Assembly: GCA_049323935.1 (NCBI GenBank)
Contig: JBMONN010000004.1
Span: 16,486-80,485, forward strand
Source of the DNA: Thermodesulfobacteriota bacterium
Lineage (GTDB): Bacteria; Desulfobacterota; Desulfobulbia; Desulfobulbales; SURF-16
Reading direction: 5' to 3'
DNA length: 64,000 nucleotides
Made by a program: the position numbers and the translations under genes. The notes under the pieces are model-generated. The model had not been told where the DNA came from. It made no database searches and worked only from the letters and a program-made list of their open reading frames with translations. Shown here piece after piece: positions 44,253 through 64,000 of this stretch (its first letter is position 1; each line of letters opens with the position of its first letter).

Positions 44253-47192
44253 TTATCTGCGGCTGATAAGTTTGCAGGCCTTGTCCTTGGCGCAGTCGGG
44301 ATCGAGACAGTCGATCAGGCTGTCGCCGTCGTTGTCAAAGGTATCGGTGCACATGCCCTTTTCCGAGGCCGCGCAACCAGGGGCGCCGGCGCAGGCCGGG
44401 TCGGCGCAGTCGATCAGGCCGTTGCCGTTGTTGTCGATGCGATCGTTGCAGATTTCCTGGGTACAGCCGGGCTGGCTGGCGCAATCGGGATCATTGCAGT
44501 CAACCAGGCCGTCACCGTCGTTGTCCACCGCATCGGAGCACAGTTCGGGGGTCGGCAGGCAGAGCGGACTGTTGAAACACTCGGAGTCGGCGCAGTCAAT
44601 GGCGCCGTCGCCGTCGTTGTCGACGCCGTCGCCGCAGTTTTCCGGATTGCAGGCCGGGGTGACGGCGCAGAGCGGGTCGGCGCAGTCGATGATACCGTCG
44701 CCGTTGTTGTCGATGCCGTCGTTGCAGATCTCCGTGGAGCAGACCGGCGCGTCGACACAGTCCGGATCGGCGCAGTCAATGAGGCCGTCATGATCGTTGT
44801 CGAGCTGGTCGCTGCAGTTCTCCGGCAGCTGCTGGCAGTTGATGTCACTGAAGCAGTTGTTGTCGGCGCAGTCGGTGAACCCGTCCCCGTCGTTGTCAAG
44901 GCCGTCGATGCAGTTCAGTTCCGGATTACAGTAGGCAACGGTGGCGCAGTCCGGATCGACGCAGTCCACCATGCCGTTGCCGTCGTTGTCCACCCCGTCG
45001 TAGCAGATCTCGCCGGTGCAGGCGCTGGTGGCCTCGCAGTCCGGATCGGAACAATCGACCAGACCATCGTCGTCGTTGTCAGCTCCGTCGCCGCAGAACT
45101 CCATGGAGTTCAGACAGATCGGCAGATTCTTGCAGTCCGAATCGGCGCAGTCGATGGTCAGGTCACCGTCATTGTCGATCAGGTCGTCACAGATCAGCTC
45201 CGGATTGCAGGCCTGGGCATCTACGCAGTCCGGATCAACGCAGTCGATGAGGCCGTCATTGTCGTTGTCGACGGCATCCGAGCAGTTTTCCGTCACACAG
45301 ATCGGCGCGTCGGCGCAATCCGTATCATTGCAGTCGATGAGGCCGTCGAGATCGTCATCCGTGCCGTTGGAGCAGATTTCGCCGCCCCGGCAGGTGACGA
45401 AGGTCTTGCAGTCCGGGTCCATGCAGTCGATCAGCCCGTCCTGGTCGTCGTCGATGGTGTTGACGCAGTTCTCGTCCGGGAAGCTGCATTCGATGTAATC
45501 GGCGCAGTCGGGATCCTCGCAGTCAACGTAGCCGTCGCCGTCGTTGTCGCTGCCGTCGAAGCAGTACGTTTCCGGACACCAGGCCCCGAAGCAGTCGGTG
45601 TCGGCGCAGTCGATGTAGAGATCATTGTCGTTGTCGATGCCGTCGGTGCAGAGTTCAATCTGCTCTGTCACCGCAGGATCCTCGTACTCGATGAGCAGGG
45701 TGGCGTTGTAGACCACAGTCGGTTTGTAGTCACCCTTGATAAAGACCGCCAGGTCGAAGTCCTGGGTCAGCGGCATTCCTTCCACATAGGAAACGCCGTC
45801 CGGCACCGTGTCGGTGGGATCATAGGGGTTGAGATCGTTGAAATTATTCCAGTTGGCGCTCCAGGCAAGCGGTGAGAGTCCGTCCTTCCAGTCGAGCAGG
45901 TTGATCCTGGTGGTGGTCGGTTCGCCGGCCGGATATTTGAGGTAGTCGTAGGTGATCGGCGGTTCCATGCAGTTGACGGTCGGGATGTCAAGCGACGGCA
46001 GGTTCTGGCCGAACTTGCCGGATTTCAGCCGGTAACGCGGCCCTCTGCCGGTCACCGGGTCCGGCTCGAAGGGATCGCGGTCGGTGGTGGTGTACCAGGC
46101 GTTGGTGGTGCCGGTCTGCAGGTCCGCCGACCAGCCGCCGCCGTCGATGACGCCGTCGCCGTTGCCGTCCACCGGCGGATTTGCCAGGGCCGGATCGCGG
46201 AACAGGGTGCCGGCCGGGATGAAATGACCGTCGCCCTCGAAACAGTCCTTGTCCGAGGTCAGGACGCCCAAGGTGTTGATGTAGCCGGGCAGCCGGCCGG
46301 TGGCCGCCTCATTCTCGAAATCCTCGGGCCTGATCTGGTCGTTGGGGCTGTTCGAGATCTTGTGGTTGACGATCAGCTCTGCCCGGGTGACCCGGTAGTT
46401 GGCGCCGGGCACCTTCCAGGCATTGGGGACCGGGAAGGAGGCGTAAAGCCGCATTTCGCTGGGCCGCTTGTGGAGCGAGCCCCAGCGGAAGAGAAACTTG
46501 CCGTCGTCCTTTTTGGTGATGGAATAGTCACGACCGGTGGCGATGTTGACCAGGTCGGATTCGTTGGTCGCCAGGGTGAAGGGGTCCACCGGGGTGGTCG
46601 GATCGTCCGGCTTGGCGAGCACGTCGGACAGGGGTTGGCAGAGCGACTGCCAGTACGGGTCGGTGTAAAAATAGGGGATCTTTTCCGTGCAGGTGAGGAT
46701 GTGCTCCATCACCGTGTACTGCTCGGCCGAACATTTGGTCTGGGCGCCGCCCAGTCCCGCGCAGATGCTGCCGCGGACGATGCCGGTCTTGAAGGCCGGA
46801 GTCTGGGGGTTGGAAATGACGACGCCGATCAGGCGGCCGTTGGCGTTGATGTAGTCGCCGATCCAGCCGTCATCGTAGATACCGTCGCGGGTTTTGCGCT
46901 CGGCACCGACGAAATCGGTGACGTGGAAGGCGAATTCGGTGTCAACCGGCTGCATGGTAACGCCGGTGAATTTGTCGATAAAGGGTTGCTCGCCGGTGCA
47001 GGTCTCCCCCTCGCAGACAATGGTCGGATCCTGAACGTAGCCGGTGCCGTCGAACTGACCAAGCAGATCGCTTTTGGAAAAGGTGTGCTGCGGTGACTGA
47101 TAGGAAACAACCGCCGCGGATGCAACCGTTCCACCGGCAAAGAGACCCCATAATGCCGCGCAGGCAGCACTGCTGTATATGCGCCACTTCAT
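44253..47192 (-). CDS. Secreted protein: ~500-aa unknown N-terminal domain + 15 Cys/Asp-rich repeats (paralog D)
   Basis: Start at MKWRIYSSAACAALWGLFAGGTVASA, with AAGGAGGA 9 nt upstream. The N-terminal domain is collinear with paralog C, including near-identical stretches (HVTDFVGAERK, NSPNDQIRPED, ATGRLPGYINTLGVLTSD.DCFEGDG). Fifteen repeats of C-x-[DN]-x-x-D-[ND]-[DN]-x-[DN]-x-x-x-D-C-x-D-x-x-C occupy nt 44256-45655. Confidence 0.8.
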   Translation of the reverse strand: MKWRIYSSAACAALWGLFAGGTVASAAVVSYQSPQHTFSKSDLLGQFDGTGYVQDPTIVCEGETCTGEQPFIDKFTGVTMQPVDTEFAFHVTDFVGAERKTRDGIYDDGWIGDYINANGRLIGVVISNPQTPAFKTGIVRGSICAGLGGAQTKCSAEQYTVMEHILTCTEKIPYFYTDPYWQSLCQPLSDVLAKPDDPTTPVDPFTLATNESDLVNIATGRDYSITKKDDGKFLFRWGSLHKRPSEMRLYASFPVPNAWKVPGANYRVTRAELIVNHKISNSPNDQIRPEDFENEAATGRLPGYINTLGVLTSDKDCFEGDGHFIPAGTLFRDPALANPPVDGNGDGVIDGGGWSADLQTGTTNAWYTTTDRDPFEPDPVTGRGPRYRLKSGKFGQNLPSLDIPTVNCMEPPITYDYLKYPAGEPTTTRINLLDWKDGLSPLAWSANWNNFNDLNPYDPTDTVPDGVSYVEGMPLTQDFDLAVFIKGDYKPTVVYNATLLIEYEDPAVTEQIELCTDGIDNDNDLYIDCADTDCFGAWCPETYCFDGSDNDGDGYVDCEDPDCADYIECSFPDENCVNTIDDDQDGLIDCMDPDCKTFVTCRGGEICSNGTDDDLDGLIDCNDTDCADAPICVTENCSDAVDNDNDGLIDCVDPDCVDAQACNPELICDDLIDNDGDLTIDCADSDCKNLPICLNSMEFCGDGADNDDDGLVDCSDPDCEATSACTGEICYDGVDNDGNGMVDCVDPDCATVAYCNPELNCIDGLDNDGDGFTDCADNNCFSDINCQQLPENCSDQLDNDHDGLIDCADPDCVDAPVCSTEICNDGIDNNGDGIIDCADPLCAVTPACNPENCGDGVDNDGDGAIDCADSECFNSPLCLPTPELCSDAVDNDGDGLVDCNDPDCASQPGCTQEICNDRIDNNGNGLIDCADPACAGAPGCAASEKGMCTDTFDNDGDSLIDCLDPDCAKDKACKLISRR

Positions 47193-47274
47193 TTTCTTTC
47201 GTCCTCCTTCGGAATTTTTCATTTGAAAACATGTCGTATCTAACGCGACCGCCGAGAGGACGGTGAAATGTTAA

Positions 47275-48629: not shown

Positions 48630-51338
48630 ATGGCGTTTCTGACCCGCGGCGCGCTGCGGACCACTATCCCTCTCTTTCTTTTCCTCTCCACCCTCCTTGT
48701 CGGCTTGCTGTTCTGGGCAGTGAACACGGCCCGGGACAGCCGGGTGCTCGAAGGGCAGGCGGCGGAGAGTGTCAGGGTGCGGCTCAGTCAGGAGGAGCGC
48801 TTTCTTGAATATTTTTTAATCCGCGGCGACCTCAATCAGGTGCAGAAGCGCATTTCCCTGCTCGCCCTCGATCCGCGCATCCGGCACGCCTATCTGCTCT
48901 GCGAGGATGGGGAGATACTCGGCGCCACCCGGCTGGCCATGATCGGCAAACAGGTGGAGACGATCATTCCCGTCCTCTCCGGCCAGGAGCAATTCCTGCT
49001 GCGCGATTATGGGGCCGAGTTTCAGCAGGCCCATGGGCTGGCAACCCACCTCAGCGACGACCGCCGGGGCATTGTCGGCGTCTCCTCGATCCTCGATCTG
49101 CCGTCTCTGCATCATACCGACACCGATCGCGTGGTCCTCTTCCTCTACTATGATCTGGAGTCGGCCAAGGCGGCGGCCTGGCAAGCCCACGCCCGGCATC
49201 TGCTCGAATACGGCGGTTTTCTCACCCTTCTCGCCCTGGGCCTCTGGTTCTTTTTTCAGCACGTGCTGACCCGGCGGGTCGAGATTCTCCGCCGCATGGC
49301 GGGCCGTCTGGCCCAAGGGGATTACACGGCCAGAGCCAATCTCGATGGCAATGACGAGCTGGCCGAGCTGGGGGCGGCCTTTGACCGGATGGCGCAGGAG
49401 CGTCAGGGCATGGAGGAGCAGCTGCATCTGGTACGTGCCTCAATCGACAGCGCCCAGGATGCGATCTGCTGGAGTGATGCCCAGGGGCGATTTCGTTTTG
49501 TCAATGATGCGGCCTGCCGGCTGCTCGGTTACTCGCGGGAGGAGTTGCTTGCCTTGGGGCCCGTTGATATCGATCCGGGACTGGCGCCGGAGCAGTGGCC
49601 TGATCATTGGCAGAGACTGCTGGCGTGCGGCTCCATCAGCCTGGAAACAGAGCTGCGCGCCAAAGACGGCCAGCTCATTCCCGTCGATGTCTCCGCCAAT
49701 ATGGTGACCTGGGCCGAGCAGGTCTACGATTGCGCCTTTATCCGGGATATCCGCGAACGCAAGAATAGCGAGCGCTCACTGCGGTTGGCCAAGGAGGAAT
49801 GGGAACGGACCTTCGATGCCATCGCCGACATCGTCACCATTCTCGATCCGGACGGGTGCATTGTCCGGGCCAACCGCAGGGCCGTGGAAATCTTTGCCGT
49901 CCCTGCCGGTTCCCTGCAGGGGAAATTCTGTTATGAGATCTTCCGGGGGAGTGACAGCCCCTGCGCAGGCTGCCCGGTCCGGCCAGGGGCCGGGGACAGG
50001 GAAATGGTGAGTTGCGAAATCGCCCATGCCATCAGCAACAGGATGTTCCAGGTTTCCCTTTCGCCGATTGTCGATGACGTGAACCGGCTGATCGGCGTGG
50101 TCCATATCGCCAAGGACATCACCGAGCAGAAACAACTGGAGGGACAGCTCCAGCAGGCCCAGAAGATGGAGGCCATCGGCACCCTGGCGGGCGGCATCGC
50201 CCATGATTTCAACAATATTCTTACCCCGATTCTCGGCTATTCGGAAATGGTGCAGGCCGCCCTGCCGCCGGCGAGCCCGGCCGCCGCCGATATCGCCGAG
50301 GTTATCAGGGGCGCGAAGCGGGCCACTGAACTGGTCAAGCAGATTCTCACCTTCAGCCGGCAGACGGACGACAGGCCCCAGCCGCTGAAGGTGCAGTTTG
50401 TCGTCAAGGAGGCCTTGAAGCTGCTGCGTTCCTCCATTCCCGCCACCATTGCCATTCGCCAGCATATCGACGAGAGCTGCCCGGCGGTGCTGGCTAATCC
50501 TGTCCAGATTCATCAGATTGTCATGAACCTCTGCACCAACGCATTTCATGCCATGCGCGAGCAGGGGGGAACGCTCGGCGTTTCCCTGACCGCCTTTGCC
50601 CTGAGCACCAACGATTTGGCCAATAAAATCGGCATCGCCCCCGGTCCTTATATCAGGCTGGAGGTGAGCGATACCGGCCACGGCATCGCCCCCGATATCC
50701 TCGGCAGGATATTTGAACCCTATTTCACCACCAAGACCAAGGGCGAGGGCACCGGACTCGGCCTCTCGGTTGTCCACGGCATCGTCAGCCGGCTGCACGG
50801 TGCGGTGACCGTCTACAGTGAAGCGGGCACGGGCTCGACATTTCATGTCTATCTGCCGACCATTGCCGCCGGCCCGGTGCCGTGGCAGGAGGAGGGGGCA
50901 AGCGATGATCCCCGCAGCCGGGGAGATGAAAGGGTGTTGGTGGTGGATGATGAAAAGGTCATTGTTTCTCTGTTGCGGCAGATGCTGGCCGGTCTCGGTT
51001 ATGCGGTGTCCGCCTTCACGGACAGCCGGGAGGCACTGGCCGCCTTTGCTGCGGAGCCGGAAGACTGCGACCTGGTCATCACCGACATGACCATGCCGAA
51101 CCTGACCGGGGTACAGCTGTGCCGGGAGATGAAGGCGATCCGGCCGGACATTCCGGTTGTCCTCTGCACCGGCTACAGTGAACTGATTGATCGGGAAAAG
51201 GCGCTGGCGCTCGGGATCAGCGAGTACATCATGAAACCGGTGCTGCAGCGGGAGCTGGCCCGAATCGTTCGCCACCTGCTGGATAAAAGGCACGACGGTG
51301 AGGAGCGAGGCCATCGCGACGGGGAAGCTGATCGATAA
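48630..51338 (+). CDS. Hybrid sensor histidine kinase (periplasmic-like domain, HAMP, 2 PAS, HisKA, HATPase, REC)
   Basis: Two TM helices flank a ~170-aa ectodomain. HAMP (RMAGRLAQGDYTARANLDGNDELAELGAAFDRM). One PAS domain carries FCYEIFRGSDSPCAGCP. H-box GGIAHDFNNILTPI. G-boxes DTGHGIAPD and GTGLGLSVVHGIV. REC (VLVVDDE..., VITDMTMPNLTG, KP). Confidence 0.85.
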   Translation: MAFLTRGALRTTIPLFLFLSTLLVGLLFWAVNTARDSRVLEGQAAESVRVRLSQEERFLEYFLIRGDLNQVQKRISLLALDPRIRHAYLLCEDGEILGATRLAMIGKQVETIIPVLSGQEQFLLRDYGAEFQQAHGLATHLSDDRRGIVGVSSILDLPSLHHTDTDRVVLFLYYDLESAKAAAWQAHARHLLEYGGFLTLLALGLWFFFQHVLTRRVEILRRMAGRLAQGDYTARANLDGNDELAELGAAFDRMAQERQGMEEQLHLVRASIDSAQDAICWSDAQGRFRFVNDAACRLLGYSREELLALGPVDIDPGLAPEQWPDHWQRLLACGSISLETELRAKDGQLIPVDVSANMVTWAEQVYDCAFIRDIRERKNSERSLRLAKEEWERTFDAIADIVTILDPDGCIVRANRRAVEIFAVPAGSLQGKFCYEIFRGSDSPCAGCPVRPGAGDREMVSCEIAHAISNRMFQVSLSPIVDDVNRLIGVVHIAKDITEQKQLEGQLQQAQKMEAIGTLAGGIAHDFNNILTPILGYSEMVQAALPPASPAAADIAEVIRGAKRATELVKQILTFSRQTDDRPQPLKVQFVVKEALKLLRSSIPATIAIRQHIDESCPAVLANPVQIHQIVMNLCTNAFHAMREQGGTLGVSLTAFALSTNDLANKIGIAPGPYIRLEVSDTGHGIAPDILGRIFEPYFTTKTKGEGTGLGLSVVHGIVSRLHGAVTVYSEAGTGSTFHVYLPTIAAGPVPWQEEGASDDPRSRGDERVLVVDDEKVIVSLLRQMLAGLGYAVSAFTDSREALAAFAAEPEDCDLVITDMTMPNLTGVQLCREMKAIRPDIPVVLCTGYSELIDREKALALGISEYIMKPVLQRELARIVRHLLDKRHDGEERGHRDGEADR

Positions 51339-54580: not shown

Positions 54581-56425
54581 ATGTTCTGGAAAATTTTTCA
54601 TGCAAAAAGCGCCACCGTACGGCGGGATTTTCCCGCTGCCTGGCGACCGGCCCTCGATTCCTCGCTGGCCACCCTCCATCAGCTGGCCGGGGCCACGGAA
54701 AACGAATTTTTGCAGATCGGCGAACAGATGCAGGGCATTTATCTTCGTTCCGGGGAGATCACCCGGCTGGCCGATCATCTCGTCGAGTCGGCCTCCGGCG
54801 GCCGGATGCAGACCCTGCTCGAACGTCTGCGGCGAATGATGGCGGACATGGAGGATTATCTGGCCAGAGCGCGCAGCCGCAATGCCGATACCTTCGCCAC
54901 CCTGCGCCGTGTCCAGGAGCTGCTGGGGGGGATCTCCGCCCCGCTTCATGGCTTTCGCAAGATGGATATGACCCTGCATATGCTCGGCGTTTCCATCAAG
55001 ATCGAAAGCGCCCGTCTCGGCGACCTGGGCGCCGGTTTCGTCAATCTCGCCCTGGATGTGGAAAAACTCTCCCGCCAGATCAACGATAAATCCGAGGCGA
55101 TCATTCAGCACCAGCGCCTGCTGGCCGCCATGCTTGATGAAAATATCGAGGTGGTTGCCTCTACCGAATCGGTGCATGACGCCGAGGTCTCGGCCGCCCT
55201 CGCCGGCAGCGCCGACAGTCTCCATGCCCTCGAAGCGGTCAATGACCGTTTCACCCGACTGGGCGCCATGGTCGCCGCCGTCTCCGGTGAGATTGCCGGC
55301 AATATCGGCGCAGTGGTCTCTTCCATGCAGTTTCATGATATCCACCGGCAGCAGGTGGAGCATGTCGCCGAGGCCCTGGCAGGCCTGGCCGCGGATCTTG
55401 ACGCCGCCGCCTGCACCGACCGGGTGCGGGAGGCGTGCCGAGCCCTGATCGTCGAGACCGGTAATGTCTGCGAGCTGCAGGAGGCGCAACTGCGCTTCGC
55501 CGCCTCCGAGTTTCATGCCCAGGTCGCCTCGATTGTCGAAAACCTGCGCGAGGTGGCCCGCAAGCAGACGGCTCTGGGGGAAGAAACCCTGGCCCTGGCC
55601 GGAATGGGAGAGGGAGAGGACGCCTCGTTTCTCGACGGCATCAGTCGGGGCATGGCAACCGTCACCCGTTTGCTCGGTACCTTTGCCGGCGCGGATCGGG
55701 AAATGGCCGCCGCCCTCAAACAGGTGGCCGCAACCATCAGCGAAATCACCGTCTTTGTTGCCGATATCGAGTCCATCGGCTACGCCACCGTTCATATCGC
55801 TTTAAATGCCCAGATCAAAGCAGCCCACAGCGGGGTGGAAGGGGCGGCCCTCGAGGTGCTGGCCAAGGAGATCAAGCAACTCTCCGACGAAACGGTGCAG
55901 CAGACCGATGCCATCGCCACCGCCTTGGGGGAAATCAATGACCAGACAAAGCACCTTGCCCATACCGCCGATGAGGCCGAAGCGGTGCTTTCGTCCCGCA
56001 TCAGCGGCATGGGCGGCGAGGTTGAGGAAATTGTCCGTGTCCTTGGCGAGATGAGCGTCGAGCTGCGGGAGATCCTCGGCCGCTTGCATGACATGGTCGG
56101 TTCCTTGAGCGAGGAGGTGGAGCAGGTCACCGGCGGCATCGACGTCCATGAACGAAGTCACGCCATGGCCGAAGAGGTGGCGGCGGTGCTGCATGGGATT
56201 GTCGGCGAGTCCCGGGAGCTGGAGCCGGCCACCGAAGAATTTAAGGAAAATCTGCGGCGGATGGAAGAGCGCTATACCATGGAAAGCGAACGGCGCATCC
56301 ATGAGGCCATCGCCGCCCGCCGGGCCGGCCAATCGACCCAGGCCGCTGCGCCGGAGCAGATCCGCAGCGACGAGGCGCCGGCGACCGGGGAATCGGAATT
56401 CGGCGACAACGTCGATCTTTTTTGA
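54581..56425 (+). CDS. Soluble, highly divergent MCP-like protein with two signalling-tip-like segments
   Basis: No TM helix. There are two segments resembling the MCP hairpin tip. The first is MLGVSIKIESARLGDLGAGFVNLALDVEKLSRQ (nt ~54977-55080). The second is IALNAQIKAAHSGVEGAALEVLAKEIKQLSDET (nt ~55797-55895). The rest is long, helical and Ala/Glu-rich. It heads the STAS-cheY-cheA cluster. Confidence 0.6.
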   Translation: MFWKIFHAKSATVRRDFPAAWRPALDSSLATLHQLAGATENEFLQIGEQMQGIYLRSGEITRLADHLVESASGGRMQTLLERLRRMMADMEDYLARARSRNADTFATLRRVQELLGGISAPLHGFRKMDMTLHMLGVSIKIESARLGDLGAGFVNLALDVEKLSRQINDKSEAIIQHQRLLAAMLDENIEVVASTESVHDAEVSAALAGSADSLHALEAVNDRFTRLGAMVAAVSGEIAGNIGAVVSSMQFHDIHRQQVEHVAEALAGLAADLDAAACTDRVREACRALIVETGNVCELQEAQLRFAASEFHAQVASIVENLREVARKQTALGEETLALAGMGEGEDASFLDGISRGMATVTRLLGTFAGADREMAAALKQVAATISEITVFVADIESIGYATVHIALNAQIKAAHSGVEGAALEVLAKEIKQLSDETVQQTDAIATALGEINDQTKHLAHTADEAEAVLSSRISGMGGEVEEIVRVLGEMSVELREILGRLHDMVGSLSEEVEQVTGGIDVHERSHAMAEEVAAVLHGIVGESRELEPATEEFKENLRRMEERYTMESERRIHEAIAARRAGQSTQAAAPEQIRSDEAPATGESEFGDNVDLF

Positions 56426-56552: not shown

Positions 56553-56666
56553 GTCTTTTTTAGGTGACGACCGGTGCTCTTTTCCTGATGCGGTGCGAAC
56601 GGCATGGCGCCAGCGGAGGAGGCGAGCGGTCGTCACGGACTTCTGAGAAGGGGAGGAAGAAACGCT

Positions 56667-57023
56667 ATGGATGAGCAGACAAGTAATGATTCGGGGCAGG
56701 AGAAGGGTGAACTCCTTCTTGACAGCGGTCCCCGCTTGACCATTGAAAACGCCGGTGAGTTCGCCCAACGCATCAGCGCGGGACTGGCGGCGGGCCAGGA
56801 TGTCGCCCTTTCCTTTGCCCGTGATGTCGAGATCGACATCACGGTTCTGCAGATTCTCTGTTCCGCCTGCAAAACAGCGGCGAGCCAGGGACGAACCATT
56901 GCCCTGCGCGGGAAGCGGCCCGCCGCCCTTGACGCACTGGTCGAGGCCTGCGGGGCGCGGCAGCCGGAAACCTGTAAACAGCACAACGATACGATCTGTA
57001 CCTGGTTTGGAGAGGAAAAATAA
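56667..57023 (+). CDS. STAS-domain protein (anti-sigma-antagonist-like, chemotaxis-cluster associated)
   Basis: ATG follows AGGGGAGGAAG. LTIENAGEFAQRISAGLAAGQDVALSFARDVEIDITVLQILCSACKTAASQGRTIAL is the STAS beta-alpha pattern. No conserved phosphorylatable Ser is obvious. Confidence 0.55.
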   Translation: MDEQTSNDSGQEKGELLLDSGPRLTIENAGEFAQRISAGLAAGQDVALSFARDVEIDITVLQILCSACKTAASQGRTIALRGKRPAALDALVEACGARQPETCKQHNDTICTWFGEEK

Positions 57024-57391
57024 TGGCAAAACTGATCATGACGGCGGATGATTCCGCCAGTGTCCGGCAGATGGTGGCCTTTACCCTCCGGCAGAACGGC
57101 TATGAGGTCGTCGAGGCGGTTGACGGGCAGGATGCCTTGAACAAACTGACCACCCAGAAGGTCGACATGCTGCTCACCGATCTCAACATGCCGAATCTCG
57201 ACGGCATCGGCCTGATCAAGGGGGTGCGCAGCGGCGGTCCGAACAAGTTCATTCCCATCATCATGCTGACCACCGAATCCCAGGATTCGAAGAAGGCGGA
57301 AGGCAAGGCGGCCGGCGCCACCGGCTGGATCGTCAAGCCATTCAAGCCGGAACAGCTGATCGCGGTGACCAAGAAGGTTTTAGGGGGGTAA
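57023..57391 (+). CDS. cheY: CheY-like single-domain response regulator
   Basis: 122 aa. Motifs ADDSASVRQM, MLLTDLNMPNLDG, IIMLTTE and VKPF, i.e. the acidic pocket, phospho-Asp, and T and K residues. Confidence 0.9.
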   Translation: MAKLIMTADDSASVRQMVAFTLRQNGYEVVEAVDGQDALNKLTTQKVDMLLTDLNMPNLDGIGLIKGVRSGGPNKFIPIIMLTTESQDSKKAEGKAAGATGWIVKPFKPEQLIAVTKKVLGG

Positions 57392-57394
57392 CTC

Positions 57395-59491
57395 ATGACT
57401 GATCAACATATCGCCACCTATCGGGAAGAGGCGGCCGAGCTGCTGGCCGAGCTGGAAACCTCCCTTCTTGATCTCGAAGAGACGCCGGATAACAGTGAGC
57501 TGATCAACCGAGTCTTTCGGGCCATGCATACGATCAAGGGGTCAGGTGCCATGTTCGGCTTCGACGAAATCGCCGCCTTCACCCATGAGGTGGAGACGGT
57601 CTTTGATCAGGTCCGCAACGGCAAGCTGGCCGTGACCAAGGAGCTGCTCGACCTCACCCTCCAGTCGCGGGACCATATCTCCGCCCTGCTCGATGCCTCG
57701 TCCGGCCTCGGCGAGGTTGATCGCAAACAGGGCGATGCCATTGTCGCCGGTCTGCGGAAACTGCTGCCACAGGCCGGCGGCGTCGTCAAAAAGGAGGAGG
57801 CCGCGCGGGCGCCGGCTCCCGCTGCCGCCGGGGAAAAAACCTGGCGCATCCGTTTCCGGCCCAATCGGGAATTGCTCCTGAGCGGCAGCAATCCCCTGTC
57901 GCTTTTGAATGAGCTGCACGATCTCGGCGCCTGCCGGGTGATTGCCCAGCTCGAGGATATTCCGACCCTGGACAGCCTCAACAGCGAACACTGCTATATC
58001 TATTGGGACGTTATTTTGACAACGAGCCGTGGCGAGGAGGCGATTCGCGACGTTTTTATCTTTGTCGAGGACGACTGTGAGATCCGGATCGTGGAGATCG
58101 ACGCCGGGCCGGAAGAAGATGCCGGGGAGTACAAGAAACTCGGTGAGATCCTGGTCGAACGCGGTGATCTGCAACCGGATGCGGCCCGGCAGGTGTTGGG
58201 CAAACAGAAGCGTTTCGGGGAGCTGCTGGTGGAAGAGGGGATCGTTGCCCCGGCAAAGGTGGCCTCCGCTCTCGTCGAACAACAGCAGGTCCGGACCGTG
58301 CGGCAGGAACGGGCCGCCCTTGATGCGGTGGCCAGCATCCGGGTGCCGGCGGAAAGACTCGATCAGCTCGTCAACCTGGTCGGTGAGATGGTCACCGTGC
58401 AGGCCCATCTCACCCAGGTGGCGGCCAGCAACAATGACCCGAAATTCATCGCCATCGCCGAGGAGGTGGAGCGGCTGACCAACGAGCTGCGCGATACGAC
58501 CCTCAATATCCGGATGCTGCCCATCGGCAGCACCTTCAGCAAGTTCAAGCGGTTGGTCCGCGATCTCTCCCGCGAACTCGGCAAGGAGATCGAGCTTGAG
58601 ACCTTCGGCGCCGAGACCGAGCTTGACAAGACGGTGATCGAAAAACTGAACGATCCCCTCGTCCACATCATCAGAAACAGCATCGACCACGGCATCGAGA
58701 TGCCGGCGGCCCGGCTGGCCGGCGGCAAACCGGCGCTCGGCACGGTGACGCTCGGGGCCGAACATTCCGGCGACTCGGTGCTCATCACCATCCGCGATGA
58801 CGGCAAGGGCCTTGATCCGGCCGTCATTCGCGTCAAGGCGGAGGAAAAGGGGCTGATTGCCGCCAATGCCGAACTGACAGACAAGGAGATTTTCGCCCAG
58901 ATCTTCGCCCCCGGTTTTTCCACCGCCGCCACCGTCACCAGTGTCTCCGGCCGGGGGGTGGGCATGGATGTGGTCAAGCGCGGCATCGAGGGGCTGCGCG
59001 GCGCCATCGACATCGACAGCAGGCTGGGCGAGGGCACCACCATCACCTTGCGGATTCCGTTGACGCTGGCCATCATCGAGAGCCTCCTTGTCAAAATCGG
59101 CGACCACCACTTCGTGCTGCCGCTTGCCGCGGTGGAGGAATGCGTCGAGCTGTCCCGCGCGGATGTCGCGGCGGCACACGGCCGCAATCTTGCCCGGGTG
59201 CGCGGTAGTCTCACCCCCTATATCTGCCTGCGCGAACAGTTCGCCATCGCCGGCGAGCGGCCGGAGATCGAACAGATCGTCATCGTCGCGGTACGGGGAA
59301 CCCGCATCGGCTTTGTCGTTGATTTCGTCATCGGCGAACACCAGACCGTCATCAAGCCGCTCGGTCGTTTCTATCAGCATGTCGAGGGTATCTCCGGCGC
59401 CACCATCCTTGGTGACGGCTCGGTGGCCCTCATTCTCGATCCCGGCATCCTGGCCCGGGACGCGGCAAGCAGTGAGCTGGAGAATCTGTGA
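57395..59491 (+). CDS. cheA: Chemotaxis histidine kinase CheA
   Basis: Hpt (FRAMHTIKGSGAMFGF), dimerisation domain, N-box DPLVHIIRNSIDHGIE, G1 RDDGKGLD, G2 SGRGVGMDVVK, and a C-terminal CheW-like domain (HFVLPLAAVEE...TILGDGSVALILD). Confidence 0.9.
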   Translation: MTDQHIATYREEAAELLAELETSLLDLEETPDNSELINRVFRAMHTIKGSGAMFGFDEIAAFTHEVETVFDQVRNGKLAVTKELLDLTLQSRDHISALLDASSGLGEVDRKQGDAIVAGLRKLLPQAGGVVKKEEAARAPAPAAAGEKTWRIRFRPNRELLLSGSNPLSLLNELHDLGACRVIAQLEDIPTLDSLNSEHCYIYWDVILTTSRGEEAIRDVFIFVEDDCEIRIVEIDAGPEEDAGEYKKLGEILVERGDLQPDAARQVLGKQKRFGELLVEEGIVAPAKVASALVEQQQVRTVRQERAALDAVASIRVPAERLDQLVNLVGEMVTVQAHLTQVAASNNDPKFIAIAEEVERLTNELRDTTLNIRMLPIGSTFSKFKRLVRDLSRELGKEIELETFGAETELDKTVIEKLNDPLVHIIRNSIDHGIEMPAARLAGGKPALGTVTLGAEHSGDSVLITIRDDGKGLDPAVIRVKAEEKGLIAANAELTDKEIFAQIFAPGFSTAATVTSVSGRGVGMDVVKRGIEGLRGAIDIDSRLGEGTTITLRIPLTLAIIESLLVKIGDHHFVLPLAAVEECVELSRADVAAAHGRNLARVRGSLTPYICLREQFAIAGERPEIEQIVIVAVRGTRIGFVVDFVIGEHQTVIKPLGRFYQHVEGISGATILGDGSVALILDPGILARDAASSELENL

Positions 59492-59544: not shown

Positions 59545-62500
59545 ATGTTTGCGAACATGAATCTGAGCAGGCGGCTGGGGGCAGGTTTTGCGGTGGTGGT
59601 GGCGGTCATGCTGGTGCTGATCTGGGTCGGCATCCGCGACATGCGGGTGATCGAAAATGGGCTGGAACGCATTGTCACCGTCAACATGGTGCGCATCGAA
59701 TATGCCAATCAGGTGATGGATGCCACCTCCAAAATTTTCACCGATGTCCGCAATATCATCTTGAATCAGGATCCGGAGAAACGCCGCCTGTACGGGGAGC
59801 GCATTGCCAAAAGCCGGGAGGAGTATGAAAACAGCCTGAAAAAGGTCGAGGAGATGACCAACCCGGGCGACAGCAAAGCCCTGGCGCTCATCGGTCAGAT
59901 CAGGGAGGCCATCAGAACGTTGAAGGCCATCAACACCCGGATCATCGATCTTGCCATGGCCGGCAATGACGGAGAGGCCGAAGCCCTGCGGGAAAAGGAG
60001 GGAGAACCGGCGGAGCACGTTTTGCAGGAGCAGATCGAGGAACTGATCGCCCATAACATGGCCCGTAACGAAATGCGTCATGCCGAGGCGGTGGCGACCT
60101 ACATCACCGGCCGCAACATCATGCTCGGCCTGGGGGCGGCCGCGGTGCTGATTGCCGTCGGCATCGCCTTTTTGCTCACCCGTTCGACCCTGCGTCAGCT
60201 CGGCGCCGACCCGCGCGAACTTGGCGAGGTGGCCGCGCGGGTGGCGGCCGGCGAGTTGTCCGGCGAGATCCCCCTGGCCGCCGGCGACACGACCAGCGTC
60301 ATGGCGGCGATGGAGAAGATGGTCGAGAGCATCCGCCTGGTGACCGGTGATGTCGACACCCTGGGCCGGACAACCATGGAAGGCCGCATTACCCTGCGCG
60401 CCGACGAGAGCCGTCATCAGGGCGACTACCGCAAGCTGATCCAGGGCATCAACCTGATCGCCGACCGGCTGGTCGGCCTGCTCGACGCCATGCCGGCCCC
60501 GGCCATGATCATTGACCGCGATTTCACCGTCCTCTACATGAACAAGGCCGGGGCCGAGGCCGGCGGCCGCACCCAGCAGCAGCTCCTTGGGTCCAAGTGT
60601 TTCGATCATTTCCGCACCTCGGACTGCAAGACAGACCGTTGCGCCTGCGGCCGGGCCATGGCGGCCGGCATATTTGCCACCAGTGAAACCGACGCCCATC
60701 CCGGCTCGCTCAACCTCGACATCAGCTACTTCGGCACTCCGCTTAAGGACGACAAGGGCGTCACCATCGCCGCCTTCGAGGTGGTGACCGACATGACCGC
60801 GGTGAAAAAGGCGGCCCGGCTCGCGGAAAAGCAGGCCGAGTATCAGAACGGCGAGGTGAACAGGTTGATCGCCAACCTGGAGCTGCTCGCTGTCGGCGAT
60901 TTGGATTTTACCGTCGCGGTGGCGCCAGCGGACGAGGACACCCGGGTCATTGCCGACAATTTCACCAGGATCGCGGTGGCGACCAACCGGACCGTCGACG
61001 CCATCCGTACCCTCACCGGTGACGCCGAAATGCTCGGCCGTTCGGCCATGGAGGGCCGCATCACGGTCCGGGCCGATGCGTCGCGACACCAGGGCGATTT
61101 CCGCAAGTTGATCCTGGGGGTCAATGCCGTCGCCGACCGCCTGGTCGGCCTGCTTGACGTCATGCCGGCCCCGGCCATGATCATTGACCGGGATTTCACC
61201 GTGCTCTACATGAACCGGGCCGGGGCCGAGGCCGGCGGCCGCAGCCAGCAGCAGCTCATGGGCGCCAAGTGTTACGACCACTTCCGCACCTCGGACTGCA
61301 AGACCGACAAATGCGCCTGCGGCCGGGCCATGGCCGCCAGTCAGATGGCCTCCAGCGAAACCGACGCCCATCCCGGCTCCCTTAACCTCGATATCAGCTA
61401 TTTCGGCGTGCCGATCAAGGATGACACCGGCAATGTCATCGGCGCCTTCGAGGTGGTGACCGACATGACCGCGGTGAAAAAGGCGGCCCGGGTGGCGGAA
61501 AAACAGGCGAACTTCCAGAACAGCGAGGTGAACAAGCTGCTGGTCAATCTGGAAAGGCTCTCCATCGGCGATCTGGCGGTCGACACCGCGGTGGCGGCGG
61601 CGGACGAGGACACCAGGGGAATTGCCGACAATTTTGCCAAGATCAACACGGCGATCAACCAGAACGTGGCGGCGCTGAAAGAGATCACCGACAACGCCAA
61701 GCTGGTGGCCCGCGGCAACCTGCTGGTGGAGGTGAAAAAACGCAGCGACAAGGATGATCTGATGGAGTCGCTGGCCGCCATGGTGGCCAAGCTGAAGGAG
61801 GTGGTCATGGAGGTGCAGGGCGCGGCGGACAACGTGGCGGCCGGCTCCCAGCAGCTGTCGGCCACCGCCCAGCACATGTCCCAGGGGGCGACCGAGCAGG
61901 CGGCGAGCGCCGAGGAGATTTCGTCGAGCATGGAGGAGATGGCGGCCAATATCCGCCAGAACACCGACAACGCCATGCAGACCGAGAAGATCGCGGTGAA
62001 AAGCGCCACCGACGCCCGCGAGGGCGGCAAGGCGGTCAGCGAGACGGTGGGGGCGATGAAGCAGATCGCCACCAAGATCTCGATCATCGAGGAGATCGCC
62101 CGCCAGACCAATCTTTTGGCGTTGAACGCCGCCATCGAGGCGGCCCGGGCCGGCGAACACGGCAAGGGTTTTGCGGTGGTCGCCTCCGAGGTGCGCAAGC
62201 TCGCCGAACGGAGCCAGGCGGCGGCCGGCGAGATCAGCAAGCTGTCAACGAGCAGTGTCGCCATTGCCGAGCAGGCGGGTGAGATGCTGACCAAGATGCT
62301 GCCGGACATCCAGCGCACCGCCGAGCTGGTCCAGGAGATCAGCGCGGCGAGCAGGGAGCAGGACGCCGGGGCGGAGCAGATCAACAAGGCGATCCAGCAG
62401 CTCGACCAGGTCATCCAGCAGAACGCCGGGGCCGCCGAGGAGATGGCTTCGACCACCGAGGAGCTCTCCAGTCAGGCGGAACAGCTCAAATCGACCATCG

Positions 62501-62691
62501 CCTTCTTCACCCTGGAAAGCGGCGGTCACCGCCATCAGGTCGCCGCCGCGCCGCGCCACATGGCGGCGAGGCAGCTCGCCATCGGCCACCAGGCGGCCAA
62601 GCCGGTGAAGACGGTAAAGAAGGCGCCTATCCACCTCGACATGAACGGCGGCGGTAATGACCATCTCGACGACGAGTTTGAGAAGTATTGA
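59545..62691 (+). CDS. Large methyl-accepting chemotaxis protein: 4HB sensor, HAMP, two tandem (coiled-coil + 4-Cys PAS) modules, signalling domain
   Basis: N-terminus [23 protein letters not shown]. Two 224-aa tandem repeats, each with MEGRIT.RAD.SRHQGD.RKLI and a PAS-like domain containing KC[FY][11 protein letters not shown][RK]CACGRAM. Signalling tip [41 protein letters not shown]. Confidence 0.9.
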
Positions 62692-62875: not shown

Positions 62876-64000
62876 ATGGCTGATGGCGGAAGAAGATCGT
62901 GGACCGGGAGAGGATTAGTCTGTTTTTTGGTGATCGTGTTGTCGCTGGCTGGGACGAGTTTCTCCTGGATTCGACCTGCCACTGATTGGTGCGGTGATAC
63001 TCCTGCTCTTCAACTGCTGAAGGTTGGACCGGCTGTCGCCCTGGCCGCTGAGCAGGACGCTTCGGAGCAGAGAGCTGTTGTCGGCAAGGGCGGCGCTGCT
63101 CAGAACGGCAAGATTGATCGGCAACGTCTCAAGGCGACTGACGAGAACGGCTCGGTGCTGGTCAGTGTCCTCTGGGTCGCTCTGCCCGGTCTGCTGCTGG
63201 TGCTGATTCTTACCGGGTTGCTTTTTAAGAGTCGCACCTCCGCAACTTTCATCGATCGACTCAAGGTCGGCACCCGCGTTACCGCGTTGAGTCTGATTCT
63301 GCTTGCCATCATGATCGGGGTGGCCGGTTTCGGCATCCTGAAGATGAAGAGCATCGGCACCGAACTGGTTGCCATTGCCGAACGCGATATTCCGCTCACC
63401 GAGGCACTGGTGGAAATCAGCAACCATTCTTTGCGACTGGAGATTCATTTTCAGGCAGGTCTCGGTAAGGGAGCCGGTGGCGACCTGGACGAAGTCGGCG
63501 GCGAAATAGTTAAAGTCAGGACAATCGGCGCGGCCGTCCGGGAAGTCGTCGCCCGTGGCGAGGAATTGGCCGAGGAGGCGTTGTTTGCAGCGGCCAGCGA
63601 TGAGGAGCGCCGCGAGTTCGACCATGTCCTCGCCATCCTGAAGGAGATAGAGAAAAAACATGACACTGCCGAGACCCATGTTCTGGAAACCCTCGGCTTG
63701 CTGCAAAACGGCAGCATCAGTGAGGCGCGGGCCGCTGCCTTCAAGACCGAAAAGGAGCTGCATGAAATCGAGGAGATCGTCGAATCCCTGCTGACCGAGG
63801 TGGAAAAATTCACCAGCACCGCCGCTGCCCGGGCCGAACATGACGAGATCGTCGGAATCTGGCTGCTCAGCACCCTCACTGTTCTCGGCGCGGCCATTGC
63901 CTTTCTGCTGATTGTCCTCATTATTCAAGGCATCAATCGGGCTCTGGCCGAGGTTGGCGAGGCGGTGGAAAACATGGCGGCAGCCAGCGAGCAGCTTGCC
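62876..64000 (+). CDS. Probable methyl-accepting chemotaxis protein, N-terminal part (runs off the right edge)
   Basis: The frame is open from ATG 62876 to the window end, and is absent from the ORF track because it has no stop. Translation MADGGRRSWTGRGLVCFLVIVLSLAG...FIDRLKVGTRVTALSLILLAIMIGVAGFGILKMK..., then a ~190-aa helical ectodomain, then IWLLSTLTVLGAAIAFLLIVLII..INRALAEVGEAVENMAAASEQLA. Topology and context match an MCP. The exact start is uncertain. Confidence 0.6.
   Translation, partial: MADGGRRSWTGRGLVCFLVIVLSLAGTSFSWIRPATDWCGDTPALQLLKVGPAVALAAEQDASEQRAVVGKGGAAQNGKIDRQRLKATDENGSVLVSVLWVALPGLLLVLILTGLLFKSRTSATFIDRLKVGTRVTALSLILLAIMIGVAGFGILKMKSIGTELVAIAERDIPLTEALVEISNHSLRLEIHFQAGLGKGAGGDLDEVGGEIVKVRTIGAAVREVVARGEELAEEALFAAASDEERREFDHVLAILKEIEKKHDTAETHVLETLGLLQNGSISEARAAAFKTEKELHEIEEIVESLLTEVEKFTSTAAARAEHDEIVGIWLLSTLTVLGAAIAFLLIVLIIQGINRALAEVGEAVENMAAASEQLA

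What the first reader, a model, noticed from the sequence alone, without database searches (positions are those of the whole stretch)
60364..61707. Exact 672-nt tandem duplication inside an MCP, each copy carrying a PAS-like domain with a C-x8-C-x4-C-x-C motif
Units 60364-61035 and 61036-61707 (224 aa each) are highly similar, including long identical DNA stretches such as the one encoding [18 protein letters not shown]. Each unit contains KC[FY][11 protein letters not shown][RK]CACGRAM (nt 60598-60648 and 61270-61320).

Four clustered cysteines in a PAS core, with no CxxCH, suggest a metal or Fe-S centre. The precedent is the NreB-type [4Fe-4S] PAS sensor, although its Cys spacing differs. 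This would make the protein a candidate redox, O2 or metal-sensing chemoreceptor with duplicated sensor modules placed on the cytoplasmic side of the HAMP domain.

The hybrid kinase at 48630 has a related but different motif, C-x10-C-x2-C.
Basis: partly seen in the sequence, partly recalled or inferred. Interest (0 to 1): 0.6.

Follow-up and report, generated by a model that had tools for sequence, protein, structure and literature searches.

The report
Chemoreceptor with two cysteine-cluster PAS sensors
A chemotaxis receptor of an anaerobic sulfur bacterium carries two old, diverged copies of a sensor (PAS) domain whose only cysteines form an invariant cluster, which marks a very large, unstudied sensor family that most likely holds an iron-sulfur cluster to steer the cell by redox state or oxygen.

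Summary
The repeat is real, but it is not an exact copy. Units 60364-61035 and 61036-61707 are in frame with no indels. They are 78.9% identical in DNA and 73.7% in protein (dS 0.51, dN/dS 0.35). The two-module layout recurs in more than 70 homologues from independent assemblies, so it is an old duplication and not an artefact.

The gene (59545-62691) is a 1048-aa transmembrane MCP with this layout: 4HB sensor, TM, HAMP, two (HAMP-like linker + PAS) units, MCP signalling domain. It sits in a cheY-cheA-MCP-MCP-cheW-MCP-MCP-MCP-cheR-cheD-cheB operon. All 8 of its cysteines lie in the two C-x8-C-x4-C-x-C motifs.

The motif defines a huge PAS subfamily: 339 clusters (50% identity) match at E<1e-30 and 1409 at E<1e-10. 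C1-C3 are invariant and C4 is present in about 85%. Most close relatives are chemoreceptors. No solved structure, Pfam or NCBIfam model, or paper was found for it.

A confident AlphaFold model (pLDDT 94) puts the cysteines in the canonical PAS cofactor region. In this genome the family profile aligns C1-C3 with the C-x8-C-x3-C triad of sigma-54 activators. That spacing is the one published for OrpR, a [4Fe-4S] redox-sensing PAS.

Best reading: an Fe-S-based cytoplasmic redox or O2 taxis sensor. This is inferred, not shown; a zinc site is the main rival. This scan has already found the same family in at least 8 other genomes.

The parts
57023..57391 (+). cheY-like single-domain response regulator, first gene of the che operon seen here
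   Evidence: 122-aa ORF with the receiver sequence pattern, ending 4 nt before cheA. Assigned by reading the sequence; not scanned against Pfam.
57395..59491 (+). cheA histidine kinase (698 aa)
   Evidence: ORF translation with Hpt, HATPase and CheW-like regions. It lies 53 nt upstream of the MCP. Assigned by reading the sequence; not scanned against Pfam.
59545..62691 (+). MCP gene, 1048 aa: 4HB_MCP (aa 4-181), TM1 about aa 13-31, TM2 about aa 193-211, HAMP region, two (HAMP_2-like linker + PAS) units, MCPsignal (aa 816-956), C-terminal ...DDEFEKY
   Evidence: Pfam: MCPsignal 1.3e-34, PAS_4 1.1e-28 (2 stretches), 4HB_MCP_1 6.4e-20, HAMP_2 2.9e-09 (2 stretches). Hydrophobic segments.
60364..61035 (+). 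Repeat unit 1 (224 aa): HAMP_2-like helix, PAS1, then helical HAMP-like linker
   Evidence: Offset-672 comparison: 78.9% nt and 73.7% aa identity to unit 2, no indels. Between the units dS is 0.51, dN 0.18 and omega 0.35.
61036..61707 (+). Repeat unit 2 (224 aa), same composition as unit 1, containing PAS2
60481..60807 (+). PAS1 core (aa 313-421)
   Evidence: PAS_4 best stretch 313-421. AlphaFold2 model of aa 304-432: pLDDT 94.2, pTM 0.84, 2 strands, helices, then 3 strands, with flanking helices. Foldseek top hits are DosP, LOV, NifL, TodS and BvgS PAS domains, TM up to 0.82.
61153..61479 (+). PAS2 core (about aa 537-645)
   Evidence: PAS_9 best stretch 544-643 and second PAS_4 stretch. 84% aa identity to the PAS1 module.
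60598..60648 (+). Cys motif 1: C352-x8-C361-x4-C366-x-C368 ([17 protein letters not shown])
   Evidence: In the model the Cys are at module residue 49 (start of short helix 49-52), 58 (loop), and 63 and 65 (N-terminus of helix 64-71), between strands 2 and 3. Invariant in alignments A1, A2 and A3.
61270..61320 (+). Cys motif 2: C576-x8-C585-x4-C590-x-C592 ([17 protein letters not shown])
61990..62412 (+). MCP signalling (kinase-control) domain, aa 816-956
   Evidence: PF00015, E 1.3e-34. Nearest NCBIfam model is the Vibrio Aer2 transducer, far below its cut-off.
62876..64000 (+). Next MCP gene (657 aa, runs past the window end). Downstream in the contig follow cheW, an 822-829-aa MCP with one four-Cys PAS, two more MCPs, cheR, cheD and cheB.
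   Evidence: Pfam on locus L046 = contig C4:78000-97000. Single four-Cys PAS at C4:83141-83518.
49929..49973 (+). Related three-Cys variant (C-x10-C-x2-C) in the second PAS of hybrid kinase 48630-51338
   Evidence: hhalign of family profile A1 against this PAS: probability 97.5%, E 6e-12. C1 and C3 columns are shared, C2 is shifted by 2, and there is no C4. Pfam architecture HAMP-PAS-PAS-HisKA-HATPase-REC.

Best explanation
The gene encodes a membrane chemoreceptor. Besides a periplasmic four-helix-bundle ligand domain, it has two cytoplasmic PAS sensor modules inserted between the membrane-proximal HAMP and the kinase-control domain.

Each PAS most likely binds an iron-sulfur cluster through C1, C2 and C3 of the C-x8-C-x4-C-x-C motif. 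C4 (or, in relatives that lack it, a His just before C2) would be the fourth ligand. An [4Fe-4S] cluster as in OrpR is the default, and [2Fe-2S] is possible.

Oxidation, loss or conversion of the cluster by O2, redox potential or a reactive small molecule would change the PAS conformation. The flanking HAMP-type helices would pass this change to the MCP hairpin and so modulate the CheA encoded just upstream. The result would be redox, oxygen or energy taxis in an anaerobe. This is the Fe-S counterpart of Aer (FAD) and Aer2 (haem).

The two modules come from an old in-frame duplication of a 224-aa PAS+HAMP cassette. Both copies are kept under purifying selection.

Shown: the gene, its domains, the fold, the repeat and its age, conservation of the motif, the family's size and its association with MCPs, and homology of the Cys triad to C-x8-C-x3-C PAS domains of sigma-54 activators.

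Inferred: cofactor identity, the signal sensed, and the direction of the response.
For: 1. All 8 Cys of the 1048-aa protein are in the two motifs.

2. C1-C3 are invariant in every alignment. The full motif is in all 120 word-search homologues and in 128 of 150 representatives of 50%-identity clusters. The family has 339 clusters at E<1e-30 and 1409 at E<1e-10.

3. The AlphaFold model (pLDDT 94.2) is a canonical PAS. The Cys lie in the helical region between strand 2 and strand 3, which is the usual PAS cofactor site. It is also the region that carries the Fe-S ligands C63/C66/C78 in the NreB PAS crystal structure, between its beta2 and beta3 (PMC13478379).

4. OrpR's PAS binds a redox-sensitive [4Fe-4S] through C52-x8-C61-x3-C65, with a conserved Asp/Glu at C1+2 (PMC8359166). 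The present motif has the same C1-x8-C2 spacing and Asp at C1+2.

5. In this genome the family HMM hits PAS domains of sigma-54 activators (PAS-AAA+-HTH_8) that carry C-x8-C-x3-C, at E 1e-17 to 1e-19. C1, C2 and C3 align after a one-residue deletion.

6. Named carriers are largely anaerobic or microaerophilic lineages: Desulfobulbia, Geobacter/Geomonas, Anaeromyxobacter, Dehalococcoidia, Methylomirabilis and Bacteroidales. 66 of 301 sampled genomes of the phylum carry the domain.

7. The domain is a portable sensor. 45 of 56 sampled relatives are MCPs with varied periplasmic domains. In this genome it also occurs on a PAS-STAS protein.

8. The gene lies in a complete che operon directly after cheY-cheA.

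9. Both copies are constrained (omega 0.35). Orthologous modules group together in the tree: m1 with m1 of P0001 and P0002 (support 100/96), and m2 with m2 of P0001 (100/97).
Against: - No cofactor was or could be observed. Four clustered Cys fit a Zn(Cys)4 or Zn(Cys)3His site equally well.
- The C2-C3 spacing (x4) differs from OrpR (x3), and the extra C-x-C has no counterpart in OrpR.
The link therefore rests on its published spacing and architecture, and on paralogues in this genome. None of the four sigma-54 activators here lies next to orange-protein-type genes (PF02579).
- Model coordinates are not returned, so Cys-Cys distances could not be measured.
- The anaerobe bias is an impression from 43 named loci, not a test.
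- About 15% of representatives lack C4, so four-Cys ligation is not universal.
Confidence: 0.55

Rival explanations
1. The cysteines bind zinc. This could be a structural Zn(Cys)4 or Zn(Cys)3His knuckle that stabilises the helical half of the PAS domain. It could also be a zinc-thiolate redox switch that releases Zn on oxidation, in the manner of RsrA or Hsp33, or of the CZB domain of chemoreceptors.
For: - Four closely spaced Cys including a C-x-C, with a conserved His or Asp next to C2.
- In three-Cys variants, His at C2-1 rises to 60% against 17% in four-Cys modules. This is the kind of ligand swap seen in Zn sites.
- Zinc-binding cytoplasmic PAS domains exist (WalK, listed), and MCPs with CZB zinc domains occur among the relatives.
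Against: - Loss of C4 to Val, Thr, Leu or Ile in about 15% of representatives is more typical of 3-Cys Fe-S sites than of structural Zn sites.
- The homologous C-x8-C-x3-C spacing is that of a PAS shown to bind [4Fe-4S].
- Carriers are largely anaerobic lineages.
- The WalK zinc site uses His and Asp at a dimer interface, not a Cys cluster. This is from general knowledge and was not tested here.
Confidence: 0.25
2. There is no bound metal. The cysteines act as a thiol switch (reversible disulfides, persulfidation or S-nitrosation) that reports oxidants, sulfane sulfur or sulfide directly. This would suit a sulfur-cycling Desulfobulbales bacterium.
For: - Thiol switches are common cytoplasmic redox sensors.
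- The organism belongs to a sulfur-metabolising order (names).
- The NreB of B. licheniformis shows that a Cys-rich PAS can be a sulfide sensor, although it works through a [2Fe-2S] cluster (PMC13478379).
Against: - A disulfide switch needs two Cys. Strict invariance of three Cys at fixed spacing, plus conserved Thr, Asp and His around them over more than a thousand clusters, points to a coordination site.
- There is no precedent in PAS domains for a four-Cys metal-free switch in the literature searched.
Confidence: 0.1
3. The tandem repeat is a recent duplication or an assembly artefact, and one copy is redundant.
For: The in-frame period is exactly 672 nt. There are identical runs of up to 49 nt.
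Against: - The units are only 78.9% identical in nucleotides, with dS 0.51. An assembler would not collapse or invent copies this different.
- 73 of 120 homologues from independent assemblies, including isolate genomes of Geobacter metallireducens and Geomonas, have two modules.
- Module 1 groups with module 1 of two other genomes (100/96), and module 2 with module 2 of the closest one (100/97).
- Both copies keep every invariant residue.
Confidence: 0.02

Closest known systems
OrpR (DVU2106) N-terminal PAS domain, Desulfovibrio vulgaris Hildenborough: sigma-54 activator with a redox-sensing [4Fe-4S] PAS (PMC8359166)
   Same: - Cytoplasmic PAS of an anaerobic 'deltaproteobacterium'.
- Cys triad with identical C1-x8-C2 spacing and an acidic residue at C1+2.
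- The triad lies in the helical cofactor region.
- PAS domains with OrpR's exact C-x8-C-x3-C spacing, on PAS-AAA+-HTH activators of this genome, are hit by the family profile at E 1e-17 to 1e-19, with C1-C3 aligned.
   Different: - C2-C3 spacing is x4, not x3.
- There is an additional fourth Cys (C-x-C).
- The output is a chemoreceptor, not a transcription activator.
- The domain is present in two copies embedded between HAMP-type helices.
- Direct alignment to OrpR itself was not done.
NreB PAS domains (S. carnosus [4Fe-4S], C-x2-C-x11-C-x2-C; B. licheniformis [2Fe-2S], C63/C66/C78, PMC13478379)
   Same: PAS domain with an Fe-S cluster ligated by Cys in the segment between beta2 and beta3. 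It senses O2 or sulfide.
   Different: - The Cys spacing is different.
- No sequence match appeared in any search here.
- The output is a histidine kinase.
- The host is a Firmicute.
Aer2 (Pseudomonas aeruginosa and Vibrio cholerae): soluble MCP with poly-HAMP, haem-b PAS, di-HAMP
   Same: - A PAS sandwiched between HAMP domains upstream of an MCP signalling domain.
- Best PDB sequence match of the family profile (3vol and 4hi4, E 4e-5), and HAMP_2 (PF18947) hits in the linkers.
- Nearest NCBIfam model for the signalling part.
   Different: - The match covers only the N-terminal strands, not the cofactor region.
- The cofactor here cannot be Aer2-type haem on present evidence, because the motif is a Cys cluster.
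- This receptor is transmembrane, has a 4HB periplasmic domain, and has two PAS modules.
Aer (E. coli) FAD-PAS energy-taxis receptor
   Same: Membrane-anchored MCP that senses intracellular redox state through a cytoplasmic PAS. This is the proposed functional analogue.
   Different: Aer has an N-terminal PAS with FAD, no Cys cluster and no periplasmic domain. No specific sequence similarity was found.

Membership tests
Methyl-accepting chemotaxis protein (MCP) | MCP signalling (kinase-control) domain PF00015 | tested here: met
   PF00015 E 1.3e-34, 120 bits against a cut-off of 34.6, aa 816-956.
Methyl-accepting chemotaxis protein (MCP) | Genomic association with cheA, cheW, cheR and cheB | tested here: met
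   cheY-cheA lie immediately upstream. cheW, cheR, cheD and cheB lie downstream in the same orientation.
PAS domain superfamily | PAS sequence profile and the five-stranded beta-sheet plus helices fold | tested here: met
   PAS_4 E 1.1e-28, two stretches. AlphaFold pLDDT 94.2. Foldseek hits to more than 500 PAS structures at E<=0.001, TM up to 0.82.
OrpR-type Fe-S PAS | Conserved triad C-x8-C-x3-C with Asp/Glu at C1+2 (PMC8359166) | tested here: inconclusive
   C1-x8-C2 and Asp at C1+2 are present. The C2-C3 spacing is x4, not x3, and a fourth Cys is added. The family HMM aligns C1-C3 to C-x8-C-x3-C PAS domains with a one-residue deletion.
OrpR-type Fe-S PAS | Detectable homology to OrpR itself | not tested
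   The OrpR sequence was not obtainable: no supplement is held, and it was not among the 120 listed hits. Only OrpR-like PAS-AAA+-HTH paralogues of this genome were compared.
OrpR-type Fe-S PAS | Binds a redox-sensitive [4Fe-4S] cluster | not testable with these tools
   Needs anaerobic purification and spectroscopy.
NreB-type Fe-S PAS | C-x2-C-x11-C-x2-C (S. carnosus) or C-x2-C-x11-C (B. licheniformis) motif | tested here: not met
   The motif here is C-x8-C-x4-C-x-C. NreB spacings are from PMC13478379.
Aer2-type haem PAS chemoreceptor | PAS between HAMP arrays, upstream of the MCP domain | tested here: met
   HAMP_2 hits flank each PAS. 48 of 56 relatives have HAMP_2.
Aer2-type haem PAS chemoreceptor | Homology across the haem-binding part of the PAS | tested here: not met
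   The profile match to Aer2 (3vol, 4hi4) covers only profile positions 3-44, the N-terminal strands. The Cys region is unmatched.
c-type haem PAS sensors (DcrA, GSU0582, GSU0935) | CxxCH haem-attachment motif in a periplasmic PAS | tested here: not met
   No C..CH anywhere in the protein. The PAS modules are cytoplasmic, after TM2.

The most novel reading that the evidence does not exclude
The C-x8-C-x4-C(-x-C) PAS is the sensor of a major, so far uncharacterised class of iron-sulfur chemoreceptors. It would be the main cytoplasmic redox, oxygen or sulfide taxis input of anaerobic Thermodesulfobacteriota, Geobacterales, Anaeromyxobacter and others. It would form one clade with the OrpR-type (C-x8-C-x3-C) and kinase-type (C-x10-C-x2-C) PAS domains. 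That clade would be a single ancient Fe-S PAS lineage used on MCP, histidine-kinase, sigma-54 and STAS outputs. Copy number of the PAS+HAMP cassette (1 to 6) would tune the sensitivity or the midpoint of the response.
Probability: 0.4. Interest if true: 0.7.

Novelty: new variant of a known kind. Interest (0 to 1): 0.5.

Why it matters
Redox and oxygen taxis is understood through FAD (Aer), haem (Aer2, HemAT, DcrA) and hemerythrin (DcrH) receptors. I know of no iron-sulfur chemoreceptor that has been characterised (my own knowledge), and none turned up in the papers searched.

This PAS subfamily is very large, with more than 1400 clusters at 50% identity, and sits mostly on chemoreceptors of anaerobes that drive sulfur, iron and carbon cycling. 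If it binds an Fe-S cluster, it would explain how these organisms position themselves in redox gradients.

It would also make OrpR the first studied member of a much broader sensor lineage. It has no dedicated Pfam or NCBIfam model. The protein is small, modular and easy to test biochemically.

Tried and rejected
- Tandem Repeats Finder missed the repeat because its maximum period is 500.
- PDB sequence and profile searches found no relative with the motif. They gave only generic PAS matches, with Aer2 best.
It was rerun with a single module.
- Six literature searches for the motif, for Fe-S PAS chemoreceptors, and in Geobacter MCP papers found nothing on this domain. They found only OrpR and NreB.
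- A homologue search with an OrpR-like activator of this genome returned only Desulfobulbales multi-PAS activators, and no Desulfovibrio entry, among the 120 hits listed.
- PF02579 (orange-protein-type) genes are not next to any of the four Cys-PAS sigma-54 activators, so no OrpR orthologue could be assigned by synteny.
- My crude regular expressions for output domains found nothing. They were replaced by a Pfam scan.
- NCBIfam has no specific model.
- Model coordinates are not returned, so Cys-Cys distances could not be measured.
- Rejected readings: c-type haem (no CxxCH), NreB membership (wrong spacing), and recent duplication or artefact (dS 0.51, conserved in many genomes).
Full report
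**The observation.** ORF 59545..62691 (+) encodes a 1048-aa protein.
- Comparing the sequence with itself at an offset of 672 nt shows similarity from about 60292 to 61263+. There are no gaps, and the repeat is in frame: (60364-59545) mod 3 = 0.
The longest identical run is 49 nt (60771-60819).
- The stretch encoding [18 protein letters not shown] is 52/54 identical. The period is therefore exact, but the copy is not.
- Between the units dS is 0.51, dN is 0.18 and omega is 0.35. The PAS core has dS 0.35 and the linker 0.79. This is an old duplication with both copies under purifying selection.
- The motifs are at the stated coordinates: [17 protein letters not shown] at 60598-60648 and [17 protein letters not shown] at 61270-61320. 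They contain all eight cysteines of the protein, and there is no CxxCH.

**The gene and its setting.**
- Pfam finds 4HB_MCP_1 (aa 4-181), two PAS_4/PAS_9 domains (313-421 and about 537-645), HAMP_2 in two stretches, and MCPsignal (816-956).
- Two hydrophobic segments (about 13-31 and 193-211) place the 4HB domain in the periplasm and everything else in the cytoplasm.
- Each 224-aa unit is a PAS core plus helical HAMP-type linkers.
- The gene follows cheY (57023-57391) and cheA (57395-59491). It is followed by another MCP, cheW, an MCP with one copy of the same four-Cys PAS, two further MCPs, cheR, cheD and cheB.
- The window lies in a genome of 3.74 Mb that is 99.5% complete. The closest homologues are labelled Thermodesulfobacteriota or Desulfobulbaceae.

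**The repeat is neither an artefact nor a recent event.**
- Of the 120 listed homologues, 73 have two motifs at a spacing of 224-225 aa. These include isolate genomes of Geobacter metallireducens and several Geomonas species. The other 47 have one motif.
- In a maximum-likelihood tree of 148 modules, window module 1 groups with module 1 of P0001 and P0002 (support 100/96). Window module 2 groups with module 2 of P0001 (100/97). The duplication therefore predates the divergence of at least the window genome and P0001.
- Elsewhere in the tree, modules of one protein are sisters. So copy number has changed repeatedly, or copies have been homogenised, in this family.
- Representatives carry from one to five motif-bearing modules, and up to six matched stretches, at periods of about 121, 224 or 315 aa.

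**The motif defines a large family.**
- A search of the PAS1 module against 1.84 billion cluster representatives gave 5517 hits at E<=0.001, 1409 at E<=1e-10 and 339 at E<=1e-30.
- 128 of the best 150 carry the full C-x8-C-x4-C-x-C. The consensus is C-[YFH]-[DEN]-x-F-[KR]-T-x-[DH]-C-x-T-x-x-C-[AR]-C.
- 21 of the 22 without the full motif keep C1-C3 but have Val, Thr, Leu, Ile or another non-Cys residue at C4. The 22nd, P0141, showed no triad.
- In three-Cys modules, His at the position before C2 occurs in 60% (45 of 75), against 17% (59 of 345) in four-Cys modules. This hints at a ligand swap. It is not corrected for relatedness.
- Other near-invariant positions include N30, T55, T60, E78-T79 and P83.
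- 45 of 56 sampled representatives are MCPs. 48 of 56 have HAMP_2, and their periplasmic domains vary (4HB, TarH, Cache types or none).
- In the phylum, 66 of 301 sampled genomes have a match at E<=1e-20.
- Named carriers span Desulfobulbia, Geobacter/Geomonas, Anaeromyxobacter, Acidobacteria, Dehalococcoidia, Methylomirabilis, Planctomycetes, Rhodocyclaceae, Actinomycetota and Bacteroidales MAGs.
- Neither Pfam nor NCBIfam has a model more specific than generic PAS.

**Structure.**
- AlphaFold2 on a 44-sequence alignment built from the window and fetched loci gives pLDDT 94.2 and pTM 0.84. The topology is: N-terminal helix, two strands, short helices, three long strands, C-terminal helix.
- Foldseek returns ordinary PAS domains (DosP, LOV, NifL, TodS, BvgS) with TM up to 0.82 and 10-21% identity. 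No Cys-cluster relative appears.
- PDB sequence searches find nothing closer than Aer2, and only over the first two strands.
- The four Cys map to module residues 49 (start of helix 49-52), 58 (loop), and 63 and 65 (start of helix 64-71). This places them in the helical segment between strands 2 and 3, which forms the cofactor pocket of PAS domains. It is also where the Fe-S ligands of B. licheniformis NreB lie (C63, C66 and C78, between beta2 at 39-43 and beta3 at 89-91; PMC13478379).
- Coordinates are not returned, so distances could not be measured.

**Relation to known Fe-S PAS domains.**
- OrpR of Desulfovibrio vulgaris senses redox potential through a [4Fe-4S] cluster in its PAS. This requires C52, C61 and C65 (C-x8-C-x3-C), and Asp/Glu54 is conserved nearby (PMC8359166).
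- The present motif shares the C1-x8-C2 spacing and the Asp at C1+2.
- A profile of the family was searched against all ORFs of the window's genome. It finds the three four-Cys modules of the two MCPs, plus a fourth on a 311-aa PAS-STAS protein with a YtvA-like architecture.
- It next finds about nine PAS domains with C-x8-C-x3-C. Most are on PAS-AAA+-HTH_8 sigma-54 activators (E 1e-17 to 1e-19). C1, C2 and C3 align after a one-residue deletion, and the C4 column holds Ile or Leu.
- It then finds about eight PAS domains with C-x10-C-x2-C, seven of which match the CYELF...PCxGC pattern, on histidine kinases.
- The three motif types therefore look like branches of one Cys-cluster PAS lineage.
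- I could not align OrpR itself, and found no OrpR orthologue by synteny. Homology to OrpR is therefore inferred from its published spacing and architecture. It is not shown.
- NreB-type spacing is not met.

**Most likely mechanism.** Each PAS probably holds an Fe-S cluster ligated by C1-C3 plus C4. Changes in its redox or assembly state would be passed through the flanking HAMP-type helices to the MCP hairpin and to CheA, giving redox or oxygen taxis.
- I put Fe-S at about 0.55, a zinc site (structural or a redox switch) at about 0.25, and a metal-free thiol or persulfide switch at about 0.1.
- Some bound metal centre or cluster seems likely (about 0.8). The reasons are that the protein's only cysteines form the motif, that the motif is invariant over more than a thousand clusters, and that it sits in the cofactor pocket.
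- Sulfide sensing, as in the [2Fe-2S] NreB, is an attractive variant for a sulfur-cycling organism, but nothing here tests it.

**Novelty and context.** None of my literature searches found a description of this domain or of any Fe-S chemoreceptor. The 2023 PAS reclassification mentions Fe-S only for nine NreB-like domains (PMC10468136). Within this scan the same family has already been reported from at least eight other genomes, with the same OrpR-based reading. A look-alike 675-nt duplication in a 1046-aa MCP was also noted. I reached my reading before seeing those notes, and they agree with it. I class this as a new variant of a known kind: a Cys-cluster PAS of the OrpR type, here on a chemoreceptor and duplicated. 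Interest is moderate (0.5). The family is large and testable, but the cofactor is unproven, and this particular gene is one ordinary member of it.

Noticed in passing
genome contig C1:113695-114633 (-) = L044:693-1628 (-): A 311-aa soluble protein joins one four-Cys PAS (CYEVFDTPLCNTPSCAC) to a STAS domain. This is the architecture of the blue-light receptor YtvA, with the Cys-cluster PAS in place of LOV. It suggests redox input to a stressosome or partner-switching pathway.
   Followed up: partly
genome contigs C40:119067-120881, C15:71195-73354, C29:42474-44549, C7:113649-115664: Four sigma-54 activators (PAS-AAA+-HTH_8, one with a receiver) carry one to three PAS domains with C-x8-C-x3-C (for example CGDVFHSSICGKSC), which is the spacing published for OrpR. 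None lies next to PF02579 (orange-protein-type) genes.
   Followed up: partly
window 49929-49973, and genome contigs C1:86039-88669, C13:796-3198, C19:93147-96323, C33:14446-17688, C27:253966-256521: A third recurrent variant, C-[YH]-[ED]-L-F-x5-[PL]-C-x-G-C (C-x10-C-x2-C), occurs in PAS domains of at least seven histidine kinases of this genome. It shares the C1 and C3 columns with the four-Cys family.
   Followed up: partly
window 62674-62688, and the end of the MCP at C4:82208-84703: Both Cys-PAS MCPs end in ...DDEFEKY or ...DEEFEQY. This is an aromatic-x-x-aromatic C-terminal pentapeptide of the kind that tethers CheR and CheB in some receptors.
   Followed up: no
homologue set P0001-P0266: In modules that lack the fourth Cys, the residue just before C2 is His in 60%, against 17% in four-Cys modules. 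Position 82 (the His of ETDAHP) and Pro83 are also less conserved in them. This could be a ligand exchange. It is not corrected for phylogeny.
   Followed up: partly
window 54581-56425 (+): A 614-aa protein with only a weak MCPsignal match (E 6.6e-12) and no recognised sensor or obvious TM segment lies just upstream of the che operon. It may be an atypical soluble MCP.
   Followed up: no
window 56604-57023 (+): A 139-aa ORF lies directly upstream of cheY, and its last bases overlap the cheY start. It has no assigned function. It could be a small che-associated protein.
   Followed up: no
window 44253-47222 (-): A 989-aa ORF without any Pfam hit overlaps shorter ORFs on the + strand. In this 64% GC DNA it may be a spurious antisense frame.
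   Followed up: no
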